Below, one piece after another: positions 1 to 5,093 of a stretch of DNA of 5,093 bases. The notes below the pieces were generated by a model that saw only the letters and a list, made by a program, of their open reading frames with translations, searched no databases and was not told where the DNA came from. A program made the translations under genes and the position numbers. The DNA is from a virus (lineage: Duplodnaviria > Heunggongvirae > Uroviricota > Caudoviricetes), in the IMG/VR virus record IMGVR_UViG_2541047905_000019; one strand, 5' to 3'. Numbering within the stretch: the first letter of the stretch is position 1; each line of letters starts with the position of its first letter.

Positions 1-177
1 GCGGAGGTAATACACCGTAAGAGCTGGAAAAACCGTGCAGAAGTGGAACTGGCCACACTCACGTGGGTGGACTGGTATAACAATCGACGATTGCTGGAAA
101 GGCTGGGCCATACTCCTCCGGCAGAAGCAGAAAAAGCTTATTATGCTTCCATCGGAAACGATGATCTGGCAGCCTGA
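1..177 (+). CDS. IS3-family (IS629-like) transposase OrfB, C-terminal 58 codons; 5' partial, runs off the window start
   Basis: Frame +1 is open from position 1 to TGA at 175-177. Translation AEVIHRKSWKNRAEVELATLTWVDWYNNRRLLERLGHTPPAEAEKAYYASIGNDDLAA matches the conserved C-terminal tail of IS3-family DDE transposases (WxxWYNxxRxHxxLG-like motif). Confidence 0.85.
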   Translation, partial: AEVIHRKSWKNRAEVELATLTWVDWYNNRRLLERLGHTPPAEAEKAYYASIGNDDLAA

Positions 178-219
178 GTTCACAGATAAAATACTCTCCA
201 GGAAACCCGGGGCGGTTCA
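1..219 (+). mobile_element. Right-hand end of an IS629-type insertion sequence (IS3 family); the element continues upstream of the window
   Basis: Transposase OrfB C-terminus in frame +1 (1..177) is followed by the terminus ...GGAAACCCGGGGCGGTTCA ending at 219. This is the reverse complement of the TGAACCGCCCCGGG... end I recognise as the IS629/IS1203 terminal inverted repeat, and ends in the CA typical of IS3-family termini. From 220 the sequence is in-frame HD-domain coding sequence with no start codon. Exact IR length not verified. Confidence 0.8.
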
Positions 220-680
220 ATATCGCGGTTTCCCTTTCAAATATCTGTCGCTTTGCAGGACATCTTTCACACTTCTACAGTGTCGCCCAGCATGCGGTGC
301 TTTGCAGCCAGCTGGTGCCGCAGGAATTTGCTTTTGAAGCGTTAATGCATGATGCAACAGAAGCGTATTGCCAGGATATTCCCGCTCCACTGAAACGCCT
401 TCTTCCTGACTATAAACGGATGGAAGAAAAAATAGACGCCGTAATCCGTGAGAAATACGGGTTACCCCCGGTTATGAGCACGCCTGTGAAATATGCCGAT
501 CTCATCATGCTGGCAACCGAACGCCGCGATCTCGGGCTTGATGATGGCTCTTTCTGGCCAGTACTGGAAGGTATCCCGGCAACAGAAATGTTCAAAGTTA
601 TTCCACTGGCTCCGAGCCATGCCTACGGGATGTTTATGGAACGTTTTAACGAGTTATCGGAGTTACGCAAATGCGCATGA
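220..680 (+). pseudogene. yfdR: HD-domain metal-dependent phosphohydrolase (YfdR-like 5'-nucleotidase family), 5'-truncated by the IS insertion
   Basis: Frame +3 is open from 165 through TGA at 678-680 with no ATG/GTG/TTG before the GTG at 297. Translation from 222 reads IAVSLSNICRFAGHLSHFYSVAQHAVLCSQLVPQEFAFEALMHDATEAYCQD..., carrying the H...HD metal-binding signature. The reading frame crosses the IS terminus, so the native N-terminus and start are missing. The yfdR name is from memory of the E. coli K-12 CPS-53 homologue and is unverified. Confidence 0.6.
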
Positions 681-1033
681 ATGTTTTCGAAATGGAAGGG
701 TTTCTTCGCGGGAAATGTGTACCACGAGATCTGAAAGTGAATGAAACAAATGCTGAGTACCTGGTACGTAAATTCGATGCGCTTGAAGCTAAATGTGCGG
801 CACTGGAAAACAAAATAATACCAGTGTCAGCTGAACTGCCGCCAGCAAATGAAAGTGTTCTGTTATTTGATGCTAACGGAGAAGGCTGGCTAATTGGCTG
901 GCGTTCTCTCTGGTACACCTGGGGACAAAAAGAAACCGGAGAATGGCTGTGGACATTTCAGGTCGGGGACCTTGAAAACGTCAATATCACTCACTGGGCA
1001 GTAATGCCGAAAGCACCGAAGAATAAAAAATGA
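671..1033 (+). CDS. DUF551-domain prophage protein (YfdS-like), 120 aa
   Basis: ORF 671..1033 with GGAG at 659-662, 8 nt upstream of ATG 671; a second ATG at 677 overlaps the upstream stop as ATGA. C-terminal region ELPPANESVLLFDANGEGWLIGW...NVNITHWAVMPKAP matches my recollection of the DUF551 pattern (LPxxxxxVLv...G...W....THWmPlP). Family name and YfdS resemblance are from memory. Confidence 0.7.
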   Translation: MRMNVFEMEGFLRGKCVPRDLKVNETNAEYLVRKFDALEAKCAALENKIIPVSAELPPANESVLLFDANGEGWLIGWRSLWYTWGQKETGEWLWTFQVGDLENVNITHWAVMPKAPKNKK

Positions 1034-1233
1034 GCGTGATAAAAACTCATACAGGAATTGTTATCACCCGAGACGGTCCGCAGGTAAAAAAACTGCACCA
1101 GACAAAGCGGATGTGGGTCGTCGGAAAAAACGAGTTTTACCACAAAGAAACCGGACGCCGCCACTTTGCAGAAAATACTCGCCGCCGACTGCTGATCGAT
1201 ACCATCAAGCCTATCGAGGTGAAGCATGTTTAA
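1030..1233 (+). CDS. Hypothetical small basic protein, 67 aa
   Basis: ATG at 1030 overlaps the upstream stop (ATGA at 1030-1033). The protein has 15 K/R against 6 D/E plus 5 His, which would suit nucleic-acid binding. Weak SD (GAAGA at 1018-1022). No family recognised. Confidence 0.5.
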   Translation: MSVIKTHTGIVITRDGPQVKKLHQTKRMWVVGKNEFYHKETGRRHFAENTRRRLLIDTIKPIEVKHV

Positions 1234-1465
1234 ACAGAACGAAAAATCTATCGCTCAAATTGCTGAGTATATCCCGCGTGCGTGCCGGGGTATGCAGTTG
1301 CAGGAAGCCAAAGCACGCCTGGAGAAAAAAATTGCGCTCTATATCGATGACGGCTGTGATACTGCCGTTCTTAACGCGGCGTTCGCGCCAGCTCTTAACA
1401 GTCATACGCGAAAGTCTTTTTTTTCGTGCATCGCAGCGCAGATCCGTAAAGGAGGCAACCAGTGA
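1226..1465 (+). CDS. Hypothetical protein, 79 aa
   Basis: ATG at 1226 preceded by GAGG at 1216-1219 (6-nt spacer). Overlaps the upstream gene by 8 nt out of frame (ATGTTTAA). No family recognised. Confidence 0.55.
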   Translation: MFKQNEKSIAQIAEYIPRACRGMQLQEAKARLEKKIALYIDDGCDTAVLNAAFAPALNSHTRKSFFSCIAAQIRKGGNQ

Positions 1466-1998
1466 GCAACATTAACTATCAGGTACTGCGTGAGGCGGCA
1501 GAACGTGCAATTCCAGCAATGGAACGCCTGTTAATGTTGCCAGCTGATGATGATTTGTTAAGTGAACAGGAACTTAAAGATTACGGTGTGGATATTGATG
1601 CGCTCAATGCCTTCAAATTTCTGACCGGACCAGAAACCGTGCTGGCACTACTGGATGAACGGGAAAGAAACCAGCAATACATCAAACGCCGCGACCAGGA
1701 GAACGAGGATATTGCGCTTACGGTTGGGAAGCTGCGCGTTGAGCTTGAAGCAGCAAAATCAAAACTCAACGAGCAGCGCGAGTATTACGAGGGAGTTATC
1801 TCTGATGGGTGCAAGCGTATTGCTGAACTGGAAGCGCGGGAAGTTCAATTACCGACTCGCTACGACCTTCGATATGGACACCCGATAAATGCAGATGAGC
1901 GACAAGTCATGATACCTAAAGAAAATGGCAGTTGGCTTTACCTGATTGACCTAGAACACGCATTACGCGTCGCTGACATTCGCATCAAAGGAGAGTGA
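1462..1998 (+). CDS. Ead/Ea22-like prophage protein with central coiled-coil, 178 aa
   Basis: GTG start at 1462 overlaps the upstream stop (GTGA), with a strong SD AGGAGG at 1450-1455. N-terminus MSNINYQVLREAAERA... and the motif PETVLALLDERE resemble the Ead/Ea22-like family common in E. coli lambdoid prophages (from memory). The heptad-like, charged segment RDQENEDIALTVGKLRVELEAAKSKLNEQREYYE suggests a coiled coil. Confidence 0.6.
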   Translation: MSNINYQVLREAAERAIPAMERLLMLPADDDLLSEQELKDYGVDIDALNAFKFLTGPETVLALLDERERNQQYIKRRDQENEDIALTVGKLRVELEAAKSKLNEQREYYEGVISDGCKRIAELEAREVQLPTRYDLRYGHPINADERQVMIPKENGSWLYLIDLEHALRVADIRIKGE

Positions 1999-1999
1999 T

Positions 2000-2263
2000 A
2001 TGGCAACTTTGACAAAAAAAGAACAAGCATGGTTGAGCGAATTACAGGACGTTCTTGATCGCTGCCCATCACCGAAAAAAATTGGTTTTTACACCATTGG
2101 CGATAAAAGCATTTACCTGTATGACCTGCGCCGCATGGATGAAATCATGGAGGCTCTTGATAATCGTTCGTCAATGGATTGGTGTGTTGCTGTTCATGAT
2201 ATGAATGCCGGATTTGATGAAAAGATTTTATTCCCCTCATCAGTTGAAAGTACAGCAGGATAA
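2000..2263 (+). CDS. Hypothetical protein, 87 aa
   Basis: ATG at 2000 lies 1 nt after the upstream stop (TGA 1996-1998); SD AGGAGA at 1989-1994. No family recognised. Confidence 0.6.
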   Translation: MATLTKKEQAWLSELQDVLDRCPSPKKIGFYTIGDKSIYLYDLRRMDEIMEALDNRSSMDWCVAVHDMNAGFDEKILFPSSVESTAG

Positions 2264-2273
2264 GGACTAACAC

Positions 2274-3035
2274 ATGACCACTATTACCAAAGAGCGACTG
2301 CTGACAATCAGGCAGTGGCGCGAAACATACGGACCTGGTAGCAACGTTGTACTGCCAGCAGAAGAAGCGGAAGAACTGGCACGAATTGCTCTGGCATCGC
2401 TGGAAGCAGAGCCGATAGGTTTCCGTTGCAGGCGCAATGATAACCTTGGTGATTGGAGTTACGTATATCATCGAGAGCCAGATGATTTTGAGCGCAAACA
2501 TTTAGTGATAGAGGGCATTTACGCCGCCCCTCCAGCACCGGTAGTGCCTGAAGAAGCAACTCCGGAAAACGTAGAAATGCTCTCTGGCTATGTTTCAACG
2601 TACAAATTAACCGATAGCGAGCGCGATATTGCTGCCGAAATATGGAACGCCTGCCGCGCCGCCATGCTTCAGTCCGGAAACTTTCGGGAAAACAAGAATT
2701 CGTCAACCAATAATTTTCGGGAAATCGCGGAAACGTCAACCAACTATCCGGCAATTCCTAGTGAGGTGTTGTCCGCAATCCTGAAGGTTGCCAGGATTCG
2801 TGCCGATTTCGATGATTTTGACGGTGACAGGCGAGGTATCGGTGATTGTCTGGATGAGGCTGAGCAAGAGCTTATCGTTACCATTAACAAATATGCCAGT
2901 CAGTTGGCAGCAGAACCTATAGCGCCTAATGACGTTCGAGAGCAGACAGCCATTCCACAAGTTCCGGTAACTCCGGATGGTTGGATAAGCTGTAGTGAGC
3001 GAATGCCGGACGACAGGCAGGAGGTGAATCAATGA
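2274..3035 (+). CDS. Modular acidic prophage protein, 253 aa, with a Pro-rich linker, an internal duplicated segment and a C-terminal fragment resembling the start of a DUF551 domain
   Basis: ATG at 2274 with AAGGA at 2263-2267. Contains the linker AAPPAPVVPEEATPE, the in-frame repeat NFRENKNSSTN/NFREIAETSTN, and ends ...PDGWISCSERMPDDRQEVNQ*. That ending resembles the start of the DUF551 region in the 671..1033 protein (VSAELPPANESVLL) but stops before the W...THW..P part. Confidence 0.65.
   Translation: MTTITKERLLTIRQWRETYGPGSNVVLPAEEAEELARIALASLEAEPIGFRCRRNDNLGDWSYVYHREPDDFERKHLVIEGIYAAPPAPVVPEEATPENVEMLSGYVSTYKLTDSERDIAAEIWNACRAAMLQSGNFRENKNSSTNNFREIAETSTNYPAIPSEVLSAILKVARIRADFDDFDGDRRGIGDCLDEAEQELIVTINKYASQLAAEPIAPNDVREQTAIPQVPVTPDGWISCSERMPDDRQEVNQ
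2679..2744 (+). repeat. Imperfect 33-bp direct tandem duplication (2 units) inside the 253-aa CDS
   Basis: Unit 1 (2679..2711) aactttcgggaaaacaagaattcgtcaaccaat versus unit 2 (2712..2744) aattttcgggaaatcgcggaaacgtcaaccaac: 25 of 33 positions identical, with TTTCGGGAAA and CGTCAACCAA blocks conserved at fixed 33-bp spacing. In frame, so it encodes an 11-aa repeat. Confidence 0.8.
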
Positions 3036-3115
3036 GCTGGCCTGATGCAATCGTAACTCTGGGGGTGGTCTTCGCAGCAGCGTTTGTTGTGTTCTCGATT
3101 TGTCGATGGGGATAA
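3032..3115 (+). CDS. Micro-protein, 27 aa, predicted single transmembrane helix (MSWPDAIVTLGVVFAAAFVVFSICRWG); not in the supplied ORF track
   Basis: ATG at 3032 overlaps the stop of the 253-aa gene (ATGA). Strong SD GGAGG at 3020-3024 with a 7-nt spacer. An 18-residue hydrophobic core is flanked by W/D at the N-side and R/W at the C-side. Stop TAA at 3113-3115. Confidence 0.5.
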   Translation: MSWPDAIVTLGVVFAAAFVVFSICRWG

Positions 3116-3119
3116 CCAC

Positions 3120-3362
3120 ATGTTCGCTTTGATTCAACGCGGTCAGATATACACGGACAGAGCTGGATACCCCGTGGTGATTACTCGCATCACTGAGCAC
3201 TCAGTGTTCTTTCGACGGATGGACGGACGATCCGGGCGGGTACGCATTGGTGAGTTAAACTGCCTGTTCGAACATATTGACCACCAGGAGTACCGCAAAA
3301 TTCTCGCGGACACTGAGCAGGAAAAGCACCTGAAAAAATTACGAGCCATGAAAAGGAAGTAA
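3120..3362 (+). CDS. Hypothetical small prophage protein, 80 aa (possibly DUF4222-like)
   Basis: ATG at 3120 preceded by GGGGA at 3108-3112. The track's 3084 start is TTG with no SD and overlaps the micro-ORF, so ATG 3120 is preferred. Sequence MFALIQRGQIYTDRAGYPVVITRITEHSVFFRRMDG... The DUF4222 label is a tentative recollection. Confidence 0.65.
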   Translation: MFALIQRGQIYTDRAGYPVVITRITEHSVFFRRMDGRSGRVRIGELNCLFEHIDHQEYRKILADTEQEKHLKKLRAMKRK

Positions 3363-3365
3363 ACA

Positions 3366-3500
3366 ATGAATAAAGCATTTGAACGATGGGTCCACCAGCG
3401 TTACGGCAATCGCTATGATCTGACGCGAGATGTTGACGGTTTCTACTGTCGTGAAGTTGTGAAGCGAATGTTTGAAGTGTGGTGCCACTGCCGTGGATGA
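3366..3500 (+). CDS. Micro-protein, 44 aa, Cys/His-containing (MNKAFERWVHQRYGNRYDLTRDVDGFYCREVVKRMFEVWCHCRG); not in the supplied ORF track
   Basis: ATG at 3366 lies 3 nt after the upstream TAA, with SD AGGAAG at 3354-3359 (6-nt spacer). Stop TGA at 3498-3500. Cys28, Cys40, His41 and Cys42 could form a small metal site. Sits immediately upstream of xis. Confidence 0.45.
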   Translation: MNKAFERWVHQRYGNRYDLTRDVDGFYCREVVKRMFEVWCHCRG

Positions 3501-3518
3501 AAGTTTTATGAGGTTGGC

Positions 3519-3773
3519 ATGCAGACAATCATCTATCAGATAACCCCCAGCAAATGGTGTACGGAGAGAGTCCTTATTGCATCAACAGGGCTAAAGCCTG
3601 GCACCATTGAGCGGGCAAGAAGAAAGTCATGGATGCAGGGAAAAGAATACCGCCATTACGCTGTAGAAGGTGATCCGGGGCACTACAGTGAATGCCTGTA
3701 CAACATCGAAGAAATTATGCGATGGATCGAAAACCAGAAACAACCAGGTGCCAAAAATGCAAGTTCCGGTTAA
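3519..3773 (+). CDS. xis: Excisionase-like protein (lambda Xis-type winged-helix recombination directionality factor), 84 aa
   Basis: ATG at 3519 with GAGG at 3510-3513. Position immediately upstream of int. The pattern ...SKW...GLKPGTIERARRK....GKEYRHY... parallels the lambda Xis pattern (...eW....sletvrrWv......G.reYlfh). Confidence 0.65.
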   Translation: MQTIIYQITPSKWCTERVLIASTGLKPGTIERARRKSWMQGKEYRHYAVEGDPGHYSECLYNIEEIMRWIENQKQPGAKNASSG

Positions 3774-3806
3774 CCTGTTAATGCTCCTGGACGTCTGGGA
3801 GGTTTA

Positions 3807-5093
3807 ATGAGTAACGCATCATACCCGACAGGCGTTGAAAACCATGGAGGATCACTCCGTATATGGTTTCACTATAATGGCAAACGTGTCAGAGAAAACC
3901 TCGGTGTTCCTGACACAGCCAAAAACCGGAAGATCGCTGGTGAACTTCGCACTTCCGTTTGTTTTGCAATCAGAATGGGGAGTTTCGACTACGCCGCGCA
4001 GTTCCCTAATTCCCCTAACCTGAAACACTTTGGTCTGGGAAAAAGAGAGATAACCGTTAAGGCACTTTCGGAAAAATGGTTGGACCTTAAGAAAATTGAG
4101 ATTTGTGCGAATGCACTTAACCGTTACCAGTCAGTAATTAAAAACATGTTACCAATGTTAGGTGAAAAAAAACTGGTTTCATCCATAACAAAAGAGGATT
4201 TACTTTTCGTAAGGAGAGATTTGTTGACCGGTTACCAAAAGCTTTCTAATGGAAAGACTTCTTCCATAAAAGGGCGCTCAGTGGTCACGGTAAACTACTA
4301 TATGACAACCATAGCTGGAATGTTTCAATTTGCAACAGATAATGGTTATACCTCAGGAAACCCATTTAACGGTCTGGCTCCCTTAAAAAAGTCCAAGGTA
4401 AAACCAGATCCTCTCACCCGTGACGAATTTATTCGTTTTATTGAGGCTTGCCGTCATCAACAAACAAAAAACCTGTGGATTCTCGCTGTATACACGGGTA
4501 TTCGTCACGGGGAGTTGGTATCGCTGGCATGGGAAGATATAGACCTTAAAGCAAGGACTATAACCATCCGTAGAAATTATACAAAACTTGGCGAATTCAC
4601 TCCACCAAAAACCGATGCAGGCACCGGAAGGACAATTCATCTGGTTCAACCAGCTATTGATGCTCTTAAAAGCCAGGCGGAAATGACCATGCTTGGAAAG
4701 CAACATTCTGTAGAGGTGAAGCAGAGGGAATATGGGAGAACTGCTGTGCATAAATGCACTTTTGTTTTTAGTCCTCAGGTAACAAAACAGCAGCAGTTGT
4801 CCGGACCTCACTACAAGGTTGACTCCATCAGGGAGTCATGGACAAGTATCTTAAAACGCGCAGGTCTGAGACACAGAAAATCGTACCAATCCAGGCATAC
4901 TTATGCATGCTGGTCACTTGCCGCAGGAGCTAATCCTAGTTTTATCGCAAGCCAGATGGGCCACACAAACGCACAAATGGTATTCAATGTTTACGGAGCA
5001 TGGATGAAAGACAACAATCACGAACAGATAGAACTCCTTAACAAAAGACTATCTGAAAGTGTCCCATGTATGCCCCATAAGAAAGTTGGGTAA
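3807..5093 (+). CDS. int: Phage integrase, tyrosine site-specific recombinase, 428 aa
   Basis: ATG at 3807 preceded by GGGAGG at 3797-3802. C-terminal catalytic motifs are present: box I LAVYTGIRHGELVSLAWEDIDL (Arg) and box II SRHTYACWSLAAGANPSFIASQMGHTNAQMVFNVYGAWM (R-H...GH...Y). The N-terminus (LRIWFHYNGKRVRENLG) resembles an arm-type DNA-binding domain. Stop TAA at 5091-5093 is the last codon of the window. Confidence 0.9.
   Translation: MSNASYPTGVENHGGSLRIWFHYNGKRVRENLGVPDTAKNRKIAGELRTSVCFAIRMGSFDYAAQFPNSPNLKHFGLGKREITVKALSEKWLDLKKIEICANALNRYQSVIKNMLPMLGEKKLVSSITKEDLLFVRRDLLTGYQKLSNGKTSSIKGRSVVTVNYYMTTIAGMFQFATDNGYTSGNPFNGLAPLKKSKVKPDPLTRDEFIRFIEACRHQQTKNLWILAVYTGIRHGELVSLAWEDIDLKARTITIRRNYTKLGEFTPPKTDAGTGRTIHLVQPAIDALKSQAEMTMLGKQHSVEVKQREYGRTAVHKCTFVFSPQVTKQQQLSGPHYKVDSIRESWTSILKRAGLRHRKSYQSRHTYACWSLAAGANPSFIASQMGHTNAQMVFNVYGAWMKDNNHEQIELLNKRLSESVPCMPHKKVG

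What the first reader, a model, noticed from the sequence alone, without database searches (positions are those of the whole stretch)
220..1033. Disrupted YfdR-like/DUF551 pair, a module whose K-12 counterpart is reported to interfere with replication initiation
An HD-domain YfdR-like protein followed by a 120-aa DUF551 protein mirrors the yfdR-yfdS arrangement of the E. coli K-12 CPS-53 cryptic prophage. From memory, YfdR has been reported to bind DnaA, and overexpressing the yfdQ-yfdR-yfdS-yfdT cluster inhibits replication initiation. Here the HD gene is truncated but retains its H...HD motif, and an internal GTG at 297 could conceivably initiate a shortened product. The DUF551 partner is intact.
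Basis: partly seen in the sequence, partly recalled or inferred. Interest (0 to 1): 0.4.

Follow-up and report, generated by a model that had tools for sequence, protein, structure and literature searches.

The report
IS-broken yfdR gene beside intact yfdS
A mobile insertion sequence has cut off the start of a well-known prophage gene (yfdR) in an E. coli strain, leaving a dead gene fragment next to its intact neighbour yfdS; this is an ordinary, recent gene-inactivation event, not a new system.

Summary
Window 222..680 encodes residues 27-178 of YfdR (149/152 identical to K-12). Window 671..1033 encodes a complete 120-aa YfdS (115/117 identical), with the same 10-nt overlap as in CPS-53.

The truncation comes from an IS3-family (IS629/IS1203-like) element whose right end is window 1..219. 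The source scaffold (GCA_000460555.1, KE701846.1) carries the other junction, a 3-bp target duplication (ATA, yfdR nt 77-79), the 26-codon yfdR stub and an intact yfdQ upstream. The rest of the window is 100% identical to prophages with intact yfdR, so the insertion is recent.

The shortened-product idea is not supported. GTG297 is codon 52, two codons after the first metal-ligand His50, so its product would lack that His and five other family-invariant residues. It has no Shine-Dalgarno pairing (+0.6 kcal/mol against -6.4 for the native start). No other canonical in-frame start lies upstream.

In K-12, a yfdR frameshift abolishes the replication-inhibition phenotype, so this copy of the module is predicted to be inactive. 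Verdict: known genes, an ordinary IS-made pseudogene, low interest.

The parts
1..219 (+). Right end of an IS3-family insertion sequence (IS629/IS1203 type). The C-terminal 58 codons of the transposase run 1..177 with stop TGA at 175-177, and the terminal inverted repeat ends ...GGGGCGGTTCA at 219.
   Evidence: Pfam rve_2/rve_3 match on 1..177. 98.6% identity over 219-221 bp to IS1203 of O157:H7 ECP19-598. The inverted-repeat arms match the left end found in the source scaffold. The window starts 2 nt after a 1040-N scaffold gap inside the IS.
220..222 (.). Right-hand copy of the 3-bp target-site duplication ATA (yfdR nt 77-79).
   Evidence: The left junction in the source scaffold reads ...TTAACGATA|TGAACCGCCCC and the right junction reads GGCGGTTCA|ATATCGCGG. 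Intact yfdR reads AACGATATCGCGG.
220..680 (+). 3' fragment of yfdR (nt 77-537; codons 27-178 in frame from 222): a pseudogene lacking start codon, RBS and the first 26 codons.
   Evidence: 149/152 identical to K-12 YfdR residues 27-178. 100% DNA identity to intact yfdR of EC9682, UPEC129 and others from base 220 on. PGAP annotates analogous IS1203-truncated copies as pseudogenes.
291..293 (+). Codon for His50, the first His of the HD-domain H...HD...D motif.
   Evidence: Aligned to VAQH of the solved HD protein 2GZ4. Invariant in 9 diverse phage YfdR homologues.
297..299 (+). GTG (Val52): the first canonical in-frame start after the stop at 162-164. It lies downstream of His50 and has no Shine-Dalgarno sequence.
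   Evidence: Frame scan. Anti-SD duplex energy +0.6 kcal/mol against -6.4 for the native yfdR start.
348..353 (+). Codons for His69-Asp70, the HD dyad.
   Evidence: Aligned to YfbR His68-Asp69 by MAFFT and hhalign and to LLHDAPE of 2GZ4. Invariant in the family alignment.
498..500 (+). Codon for Asp119, the last Asp of the HD motif.
   Evidence: Aligned to KKAD of 2GZ4. Invariant in the family alignment.
671..1033 (+). yfdS: an intact 120-aa ORF (coiled-coil N-terminal part plus a DUF551-type C-terminal domain) with its own Shine-Dalgarno sequence (GGAG at 659-662).
   Evidence: 115/117 identical to K-12 YfdS. phrog_583 at 1.9e-81. Pfam DUF551 21.0 bits against cut-off 22. SD energy -6.1 kcal/mol. 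Annotated as 'phage protein', 'YfdS family phage-associated protein' or 'Eae protein' in identical or near-identical records.

Best explanation
An IS629/IS1203-type IS3-family element transposed into codon 26/27 of yfdR. The gene belongs to a lambdoid prophage integrated at mlrA (yehV) in an E. coli strain. The insertion separated the promoter-proximal 26 codons, the start codon and the ribosome-binding site from the remaining 152 codons. What lies at 220..680 is therefore a recent, undecayed pseudogene fragment, not a gene for a shortened enzyme. yfdS (671..1033) and the downstream early-left ('ea'/exo-xis type) genes are intact. yfdS has its own Shine-Dalgarno sequence and can still be translated from any transcript that reads through the IS, which has the same orientation as the operon. 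The published multicopy effect on DnaA-dependent initiation requires yfdQ, an intact yfdR reading frame, and yfdS or yfdT, and YfdR is the DnaA binder. This copy of the module is therefore predicted to be inactive for that effect and for dNMP phosphatase activity. Shown here: gene identity, junctions, target duplication, absence of start and SD, loss of His50 from any GTG297 product. Inferred: no protein is made, the module has lost function, and yfdS is still expressed.
For: Gene identity: 98% identity to K-12 YfdR and YfdS; PHROG deoxyribonucleoside 5'-monophosphate phosphatase, 1e-93. Cause of truncation: the window is an exact substring of GCA_000460555.1 KE701846.1. The IS ends are 95.5% and 98.6% identical to the 1310-bp IS1203. 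yfdP and yfdQ (DUF2303, 306.9 bits) are intact upstream. Recency: bases 220-5093 are 100% identical to UPEC129 and NR301, which carry intact yfdR. No expressible frame: the in-frame stop is at 162-164, there is no ATG/GTG/TTG before 297, and the transposase is in another frame. SD energies of all internal starts are -3.2 kcal/mol or weaker, against -6.4 for the native start; 43% of all window positions reach -3. There are 0 promoter-like sites in 1..1300. Loss of essential residues: His50, Arg36 and four others, of 18 invariant columns, lie upstream of codon 52. Functional requirement: a yfdR frameshift abolishes hda-185 suppression, and the minimal set is yfdQ + yfdR + (yfdS or yfdT). PGAP calls equivalent IS1203-truncated yfdR copies pseudogenes.
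Against: Nothing positive speaks against it. The caveats are as follows. The IS interior is an unassembled scaffold gap (1040 N), so linkage of the two halves rests on scaffolding plus the matching target duplication. Absence of an SD does not absolutely exclude low-level initiation. An automatic gene caller did call the 127-aa ORF from GTG297, though only as the longest ORF. The region of YfdR that binds DnaA has not been mapped, so a C-terminal fragment cannot be formally excluded as a binder if it were made.
Confidence: 0.9

Rival explanations
1. A shortened YfdR (residues 52-178 from GTG297, or 68-178 from ATG345) is translated from read-through or IS-derived transcripts. It retains DnaA-domain-I binding without nucleotidase activity and acts as a catalytically dead initiation modulator.
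For: The frame is open from 165 to 680 and undecayed. The IS has the same orientation as the operon, and no convincing terminator lies between the transposase stop and 297; only a weak 5-bp hairpin at 212-226 was found, and the count of terminator-like sites is within shuffle expectation. The DnaA-binding surface of YfdR is unmapped.
Against: There is no SD at any internal start: +0.6 kcal/mol at GTG297 and -0.2 at ATG345. The product would lack the N-terminal part of the HD domain, including invariant Arg36 and His50, so stable folding is doubtful. The lack of decay is explained by recency (100% identity to intact prophages over 4.9 kb), not by selection. The K-12 phenotype needs overexpression even with full-length protein, and deletion has no phenotype.
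Confidence: 0.04
2. The disruption is an assembly or scaffolding artefact: yfdR is intact in the real genome, and contigs ending in a repeated IS were joined wrongly.
For: The IS interior is a 1040-N scaffold gap, and the window begins 2 nt after it. No complete E. coli genome and no GTDB representative carries this exact junction.
Against: Both junctions lie inside assembled contig sequence: 310 bp of IS left end follow yfdR nt 1-79, and 221 bp of IS right end precede nt 77-537. The two flanks share the 3-bp duplication ATA, as expected for IS3-family transposition, as in the O157 IS1203 insertion with TCC. A chimeric join would not create a precise target duplication.
Confidence: 0.02
3. The IS insertion matters mainly as a regulatory change. 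Transposase-promoter or outward transcription from the IS uncouples yfdS and the downstream ea genes, xis and int from repressor-controlled early-left transcription, or alternatively blocks that transcription (polarity). The insertion would then alter prophage excision or gene expression rather than just killing yfdR.
For: The IS is co-oriented with the operon and sits between the repressor-proximal promoter region and yfdS...xis-int. yfdS has its own SD.
Against: No sigma-70-like outward promoter was detected in 1..1300. There are no expression data. This is compatible with, not alternative to, yfdR inactivation.
Confidence: 0.1

Closest known systems
[quoted passage not shown]
   Same: YfdR residues 27-178 are 98% identical and YfdS is 98% identical. 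Gene order and the 10-nt yfdR/yfdS overlap are the same. yfdP and yfdQ lie upstream in the source scaffold.
   Different: yfdR here is split by an IS at nt 77-79. There is no yfdT, and homology to K-12 ends at the yfdS stop. The host prophage is a different lambdoid element integrated at mlrA, with a 428-aa integrase, rather than at argW.
IS1203/IS629-truncated yfdR pseudogenes in STEC prophages (O157:H7 ECP19-598; O111:H8 SF26 102-1)
   Same: The same type of IS, in the same orientation, sits in the 5' end of yfdR, 9-11 bp away (junctions at nt 68 and nt 88-90 against 77-79 here). The O157 case also has a 3-bp duplication (TCC). PGAP annotates both as pseudogenes.
   Different: These are independent events at different nucleotides in diverged yfdR alleles and prophages. 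In O111 the upstream flank is unrelated DNA, so an IS-mediated rearrangement has occurred.
YfbR (E. coli 5'-deoxynucleotidase, PDB 2PAQ) and Atu1052 (PDB 2GZ4), HD-domain phosphohydrolases
   Same: The HD core is shared: H69-D70-x-x-E73...D78-x-P-x-P-x-K aligns to YfbR H68-D69...E72...D77 (hhalign probability 95%). The whole domain aligns to 2GZ4 at E=8e-14, with the VAQH, HDA.E and K.AD motifs conserved.
   Different: Identity to YfbR is only about 23%, and the region between the first His and the HD dyad is shorter. YfdR is phage-borne and is reported to have much lower nucleotide affinity than YfbR (Zimmerman 2008, as cited).
Phage 'deoxyribonucleoside 5' monophosphate phosphatase' family (phrog_318)
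   Same: 324 phage records encode homologues. In virulent phages the gene sits among DNA-metabolism genes: ligase/polymerase, thymidine kinase, helicase/replication initiator. The same 18 residues are invariant.
   Different: Only the enterobacterial lambdoid versions are paired with DUF2303 (yfdQ) and yfdS. DnaA binding has been shown only for K-12 YfdR.

Membership tests
YfdR (prophage HD-domain 5'-deoxynucleotidase) | High sequence identity to K-12 YfdR over the aligned region | tested here: met
   149/152 identical, E=7e-116; phrog_318 at 1.1e-93.
YfdR (prophage HD-domain 5'-deoxynucleotidase) | H...HD...D metal-ligand motif encoded in frame | tested here: met
   His50, His69-Asp70 and Asp119 are present in the 222..680 frame. 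They are invariant in 9 diverse homologues and aligned to the motifs of the solved HD protein 2GZ4; the HD core aligns to YfbR. No structure-based superposition was possible because the AF2 single-sequence model was unusable.
YfdR (prophage HD-domain 5'-deoxynucleotidase) | Complete coding sequence: start codon, RBS and 178 codons | tested here: not met
   Codons 1-26, the ATG and the GGAG SD are separated by the IS. The first canonical start is codon 52, without an SD. Hence it is a pseudogene, not a family member in the functional sense.
YfdR (prophage HD-domain 5'-deoxynucleotidase) | dNMP phosphatase activity and DnaA domain I (Phe46-dependent) binding | not testable with these tools
   These are biochemical properties known only for the full-length K-12 protein.
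YfdS / DUF551 proteins | Full-length identity to K-12 YfdS with an intact ORF and its own RBS | tested here: met
   115/117 identical, 120 aa. GGAG lies 8 nt upstream of the ATG, -6.1 kcal/mol. phrog_583 at 1.9e-81.
YfdS / DUF551 proteins | Pfam PF04448 (DUF551) match above the gathering score | tested here: inconclusive
   21.0 bits against cut-off 22 for this protein. K-12 YfdS, 2 residues different in the domain, scores 22.2 and passes.
yfdQRST replication-initiation-interfering module (Noguchi & Katayama 2016) | yfdQ present and intact | tested here: met
   It lies outside the window but is in the source scaffold: a 274-aa DUF2303 protein, 306.9 bits.
yfdQRST replication-initiation-interfering module (Noguchi & Katayama 2016) | Intact yfdR reading frame (a frameshift abolishes the effect) | tested here: not met
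   IS insertion at nt 77-79. The requirement is stated.
yfdQRST replication-initiation-interfering module (Noguchi & Katayama 2016) | yfdS or yfdT present | tested here: met
   yfdS is intact. There is no yfdT homologue.
IS3 family, IS629/IS1203 group | Terminal inverted repeats TG...CA, 3-bp target duplication, rve-type transposase, about 1.3 kb | tested here: met
   The inverted repeats are TGAACCGCCCCGGG...CCCGGGGCGGTTCA. The rve_2/rve_3 match is. The ends are 95.5% and 98.6% identical to the 1310-bp IS1203. Full length was not testable because the interior is a scaffold gap.

The most novel reading that the evidence does not exclude
The first ~90 nt of yfdR may be a preferred target for IS629/IS1203-type elements. 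There are three independent insertions within 21 bp, at nt 68, 77-79 and 88-90, in three different prophage and strain backgrounds. Alternatively, lysogens may be selected to inactivate yfdR because leaky expression of a DnaA-binding phage protein is costly. A less likely variant is that the remaining 'yfdR frame yields a catalytically dead DnaA-binding fragment.
Probability: 0.15. Interest if true: 0.3.

Novelty: already known. Interest (0 to 1): 0.08.

Why it matters
It matters little beyond correct annotation. The 127-aa ORF that automatic gene callers report at 297..680 should be labelled as the 3' part of an IS-interrupted yfdR pseudogene. This strain's copy of the yfdQRS module should not be counted as a functional DnaA-interfering or dNMP-phosphatase module. 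The source strain and its intact-yfdR relatives (UPEC129, NR301) carry a prophage that is 100% identical over the 4.9 kb compared. They could therefore serve as comparison strains for asking whether YfdR has any phenotype at native expression level, which the K-12 deletion experiments did not reveal.

Tried and rejected
1. AlphaFold2 single-sequence models of the 152-aa YfdR fragment and of YfdS came out at mean pLDDT 37.7 and 38.2. They were unusable, so no fold search was run, and the ligand check rests on sequence alignments instead.
2. Pairwise and MAFFT alignment of YfdR to YfbR is reliable only around the HD dyad. The first His and last Asp were mis-aligned and hhalign covered only residues 12-97. 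The 2GZ4 alignment and the family alignment were used for those residues.
3. Zimmerman et al. 2008 (the YfbR/YfdR enzymology paper) is not held in the library. It is cited only through Noguchi & Katayama.
4. An exact-junction search of GTDB representative genomes found nothing, and no complete E. coli genome has this junction. The source was found instead by looking up the 127-aa ORF.
5. Strain M15 looked like an IS903B-disrupted yfdR from the hit table, but the IS903B lies downstream, after the 67-aa ORF, and yfdR is intact.
6. L008, a metagenome contig with the same 127-aa ORF, has single-A homopolymer insertions at 0.56x coverage. These are probably sequencing errors and not informative.
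7. A transposase-'YfdR fusion by frameshifting was considered. The frames differ, and there is no slippery sequence in the 13 nt between the frame-3 stop (162-164) and the transposase stop (175-177).
8. PADLOC defence models, Rfam families and tRNAs gave no hits.
9. NCBIfam has no model that any of these early-left proteins passes.

Full report
WHAT IS THERE. The window is an exact substring (positions 7705..12797 of locus L007) of scaffold KE701846.1 of NCBI assembly GCA_000460555.1. It begins 2 nt after a 1040-N scaffold gap.

Bases 1..219 are the right end of an IS3-family element. The last 58 codons of the transposase (1..177) match rve_2/rve_3. The sequence is 98.6% identical to the right end of the 1310-bp IS1203 annotated in O157:H7 ECP19-598, and it ends with the terminal repeat ...CCCGGGGCGGTTCA at 219.

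From base 220 to the end (5093), the window is 100.0% identical to prophages of E. coli UPEC129, NR301 and others, in which yfdR is intact.

THE TWO GENES. The frame 222..680 translates to residues 27-178 of YfdR, 149/152 identical to K-12 YfdR. The ORF 671..1033 is a complete 120-aa YfdS, 115/117 identical to K-12 YfdS. The 10-nt overlap of the yfdS start with the yfdR end is the same as in CPS-53.

PHROG matches agree: phrog_318 'deoxyribonucleoside 5' monophosphate phosphatase' at 1e-93 and phrog_583 at 2e-81. Pfam matches are marginal even for the intact proteins (YfbR-like 24.4 against 25.9; DUF551 21.0-22.2 against 22). The family labels therefore rest on orthology to the K-12 genes.

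The pair is very common. It covers at least 80% of the 814-bp query in 2273 of 5426 complete E. coli genomes. It also occurs in 49 phage records, including mEp460, Stx2c-converting phages and Shigella phages.

WHY yfdR IS TRUNCATED. The source scaffold holds the other half. Upstream lie yfdP, an intact yfdQ (274 aa, DUF2303, 306.9 bits) and then yfdR nt 1-79. These are followed directly by the IS left end TGAACCGCCCCGGG..., which is 95.5% identical to IS1203 over 310 bp.

The left flank ends ...AACGATA and the right flank (window 220) starts ATATCGCGG, while intact yfdR reads AACGATATCGCGG. This is a 3-bp target duplication (ATA, nt 77-79), as expected for IS3-family transposition. The O157:H7 IS1203 insertion in yfdR shows the same kind of duplication (TCC, nt 88-90).

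The IS has the same orientation as the operon. The 5' stub reads into the IS and stops after 35 codons. Both junctions lie inside assembled sequence and share the duplication, so a scaffolding artefact is very unlikely even though the IS interior is unassembled.

CAN A SHORTENED PROTEIN BE MADE? In the yfdR frame the nearest upstream stop is at 162-164, inside the IS. No ATG, GTG or TTG occurs until GTG297. The transposase ends in a different frame at 175-177. GTG297 is codon 52.

The alignment to the solved HD-domain protein Atu1052 (2GZ4, E=8e-14) places the H...HD...D motif at His50, His69-Asp70 and Asp119. The alignment of nine YfdR homologues from phages of Citrobacter, Providencia, Burkholderia, Caulobacter, Stenotrophomonas, Bacillus and Escherichia (35-67% identity) agrees. 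In that alignment, 18 columns are invariant: A28, L31, R36, G39, V47, H50, L67, H69, D70, E73, D78, P82, K84, P88, D119, L123, E126 and L171. The HD core aligns to YfbR H68-D69/E72/D77.

The reading frame as such keeps every invariant residue. A product starting at GTG297, however, would lack six of them, including the first metal-ligand His.

Predicted anti-Shine-Dalgarno pairing is +0.6 kcal/mol for GTG297 and -0.2 for ATG345, and no internal start is better than -3.2. The native yfdR start gives -6.4, yfdQ -6.4 and yfdS -6.1, and 43% of all window positions reach -3. No sigma-70-like promoter was found in 1..1300. PGAP treats equivalent IS1203-truncated copies as pseudogenes. I conclude that 220..680 is a pseudogene fragment (confidence 0.9). 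Its perfect preservation reflects recency, not selection.

WHAT IT MEANS FOR THE 'MODULE'. The recalled paper is real and accurately recalled (PMC4776307). Multicopy yfdQRS or yfdQRT suppresses hda-185 over-initiation and inhibits initiation in wild type. [quoted passage not shown]

The same paper shows that yfdQ, yfdR and one of yfdS or yfdT are all needed, and that a yfdR frameshift abolishes the effect. It also shows that deleting the cluster has no initiation phenotype, and its authors caution that the overexpression effect may be an artefact.

Here yfdQ and yfdS are intact, yfdT is absent and yfdR is broken. The module is therefore predicted to be non-functional for that effect. Which part of YfdR contacts DnaA is unknown, so binding by a hypothetical fragment cannot be excluded on sequence grounds. 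That rival fails mainly on expression and folding.

WIDER CONTEXT. YfdR-type HD phosphohydrolases occur in 324 phage records. In virulent phages they sit among DNA-metabolism genes: DNA ligase and polymerase, thymidine kinase, helicase and replication initiator. This is consistent with a primary role in nucleotide metabolism during phage replication. The yfdQ (DUF2303) linkage is seen in enterobacterial temperate phages, for example Citrobacter phiNP.

YfdS is mosaic. Residues 1-49 and 46-117 match different PHROGs. DUF551 is described as a portable C-terminal domain in Ea22-type proteins of the exo-xis region (PMC10834534). The rest of the window is such a region, followed by excisionase and integrase.

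COMPARISON AND NOVELTY. Everything here belongs to known kinds: known genes (yfdR, yfdS), a known IS group and an ordinary insertional inactivation. The exact junction is absent from 5426 complete E. coli genomes and from the GTDB representatives, so it is strain-specific, but that is unremarkable.

The only mildly interesting point concerns IS1203-type elements in other strains. They also sit in the yfdR 5' end in O111:H8 (junction at nt 68) and in four O157:H7 genomes whose matches are identical in extent and identity; the one examined, ECP19-598, has the insertion at nt 88-90. An IS903-type end abuts nt 128 in a metagenome contig.

My searches could only detect events near this junction or upstream of codon 52. 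The apparent clustering is therefore ascertainment-limited and is not evidence for a hot spot.

VERDICT. Novelty: already known. Interest: 0.08.

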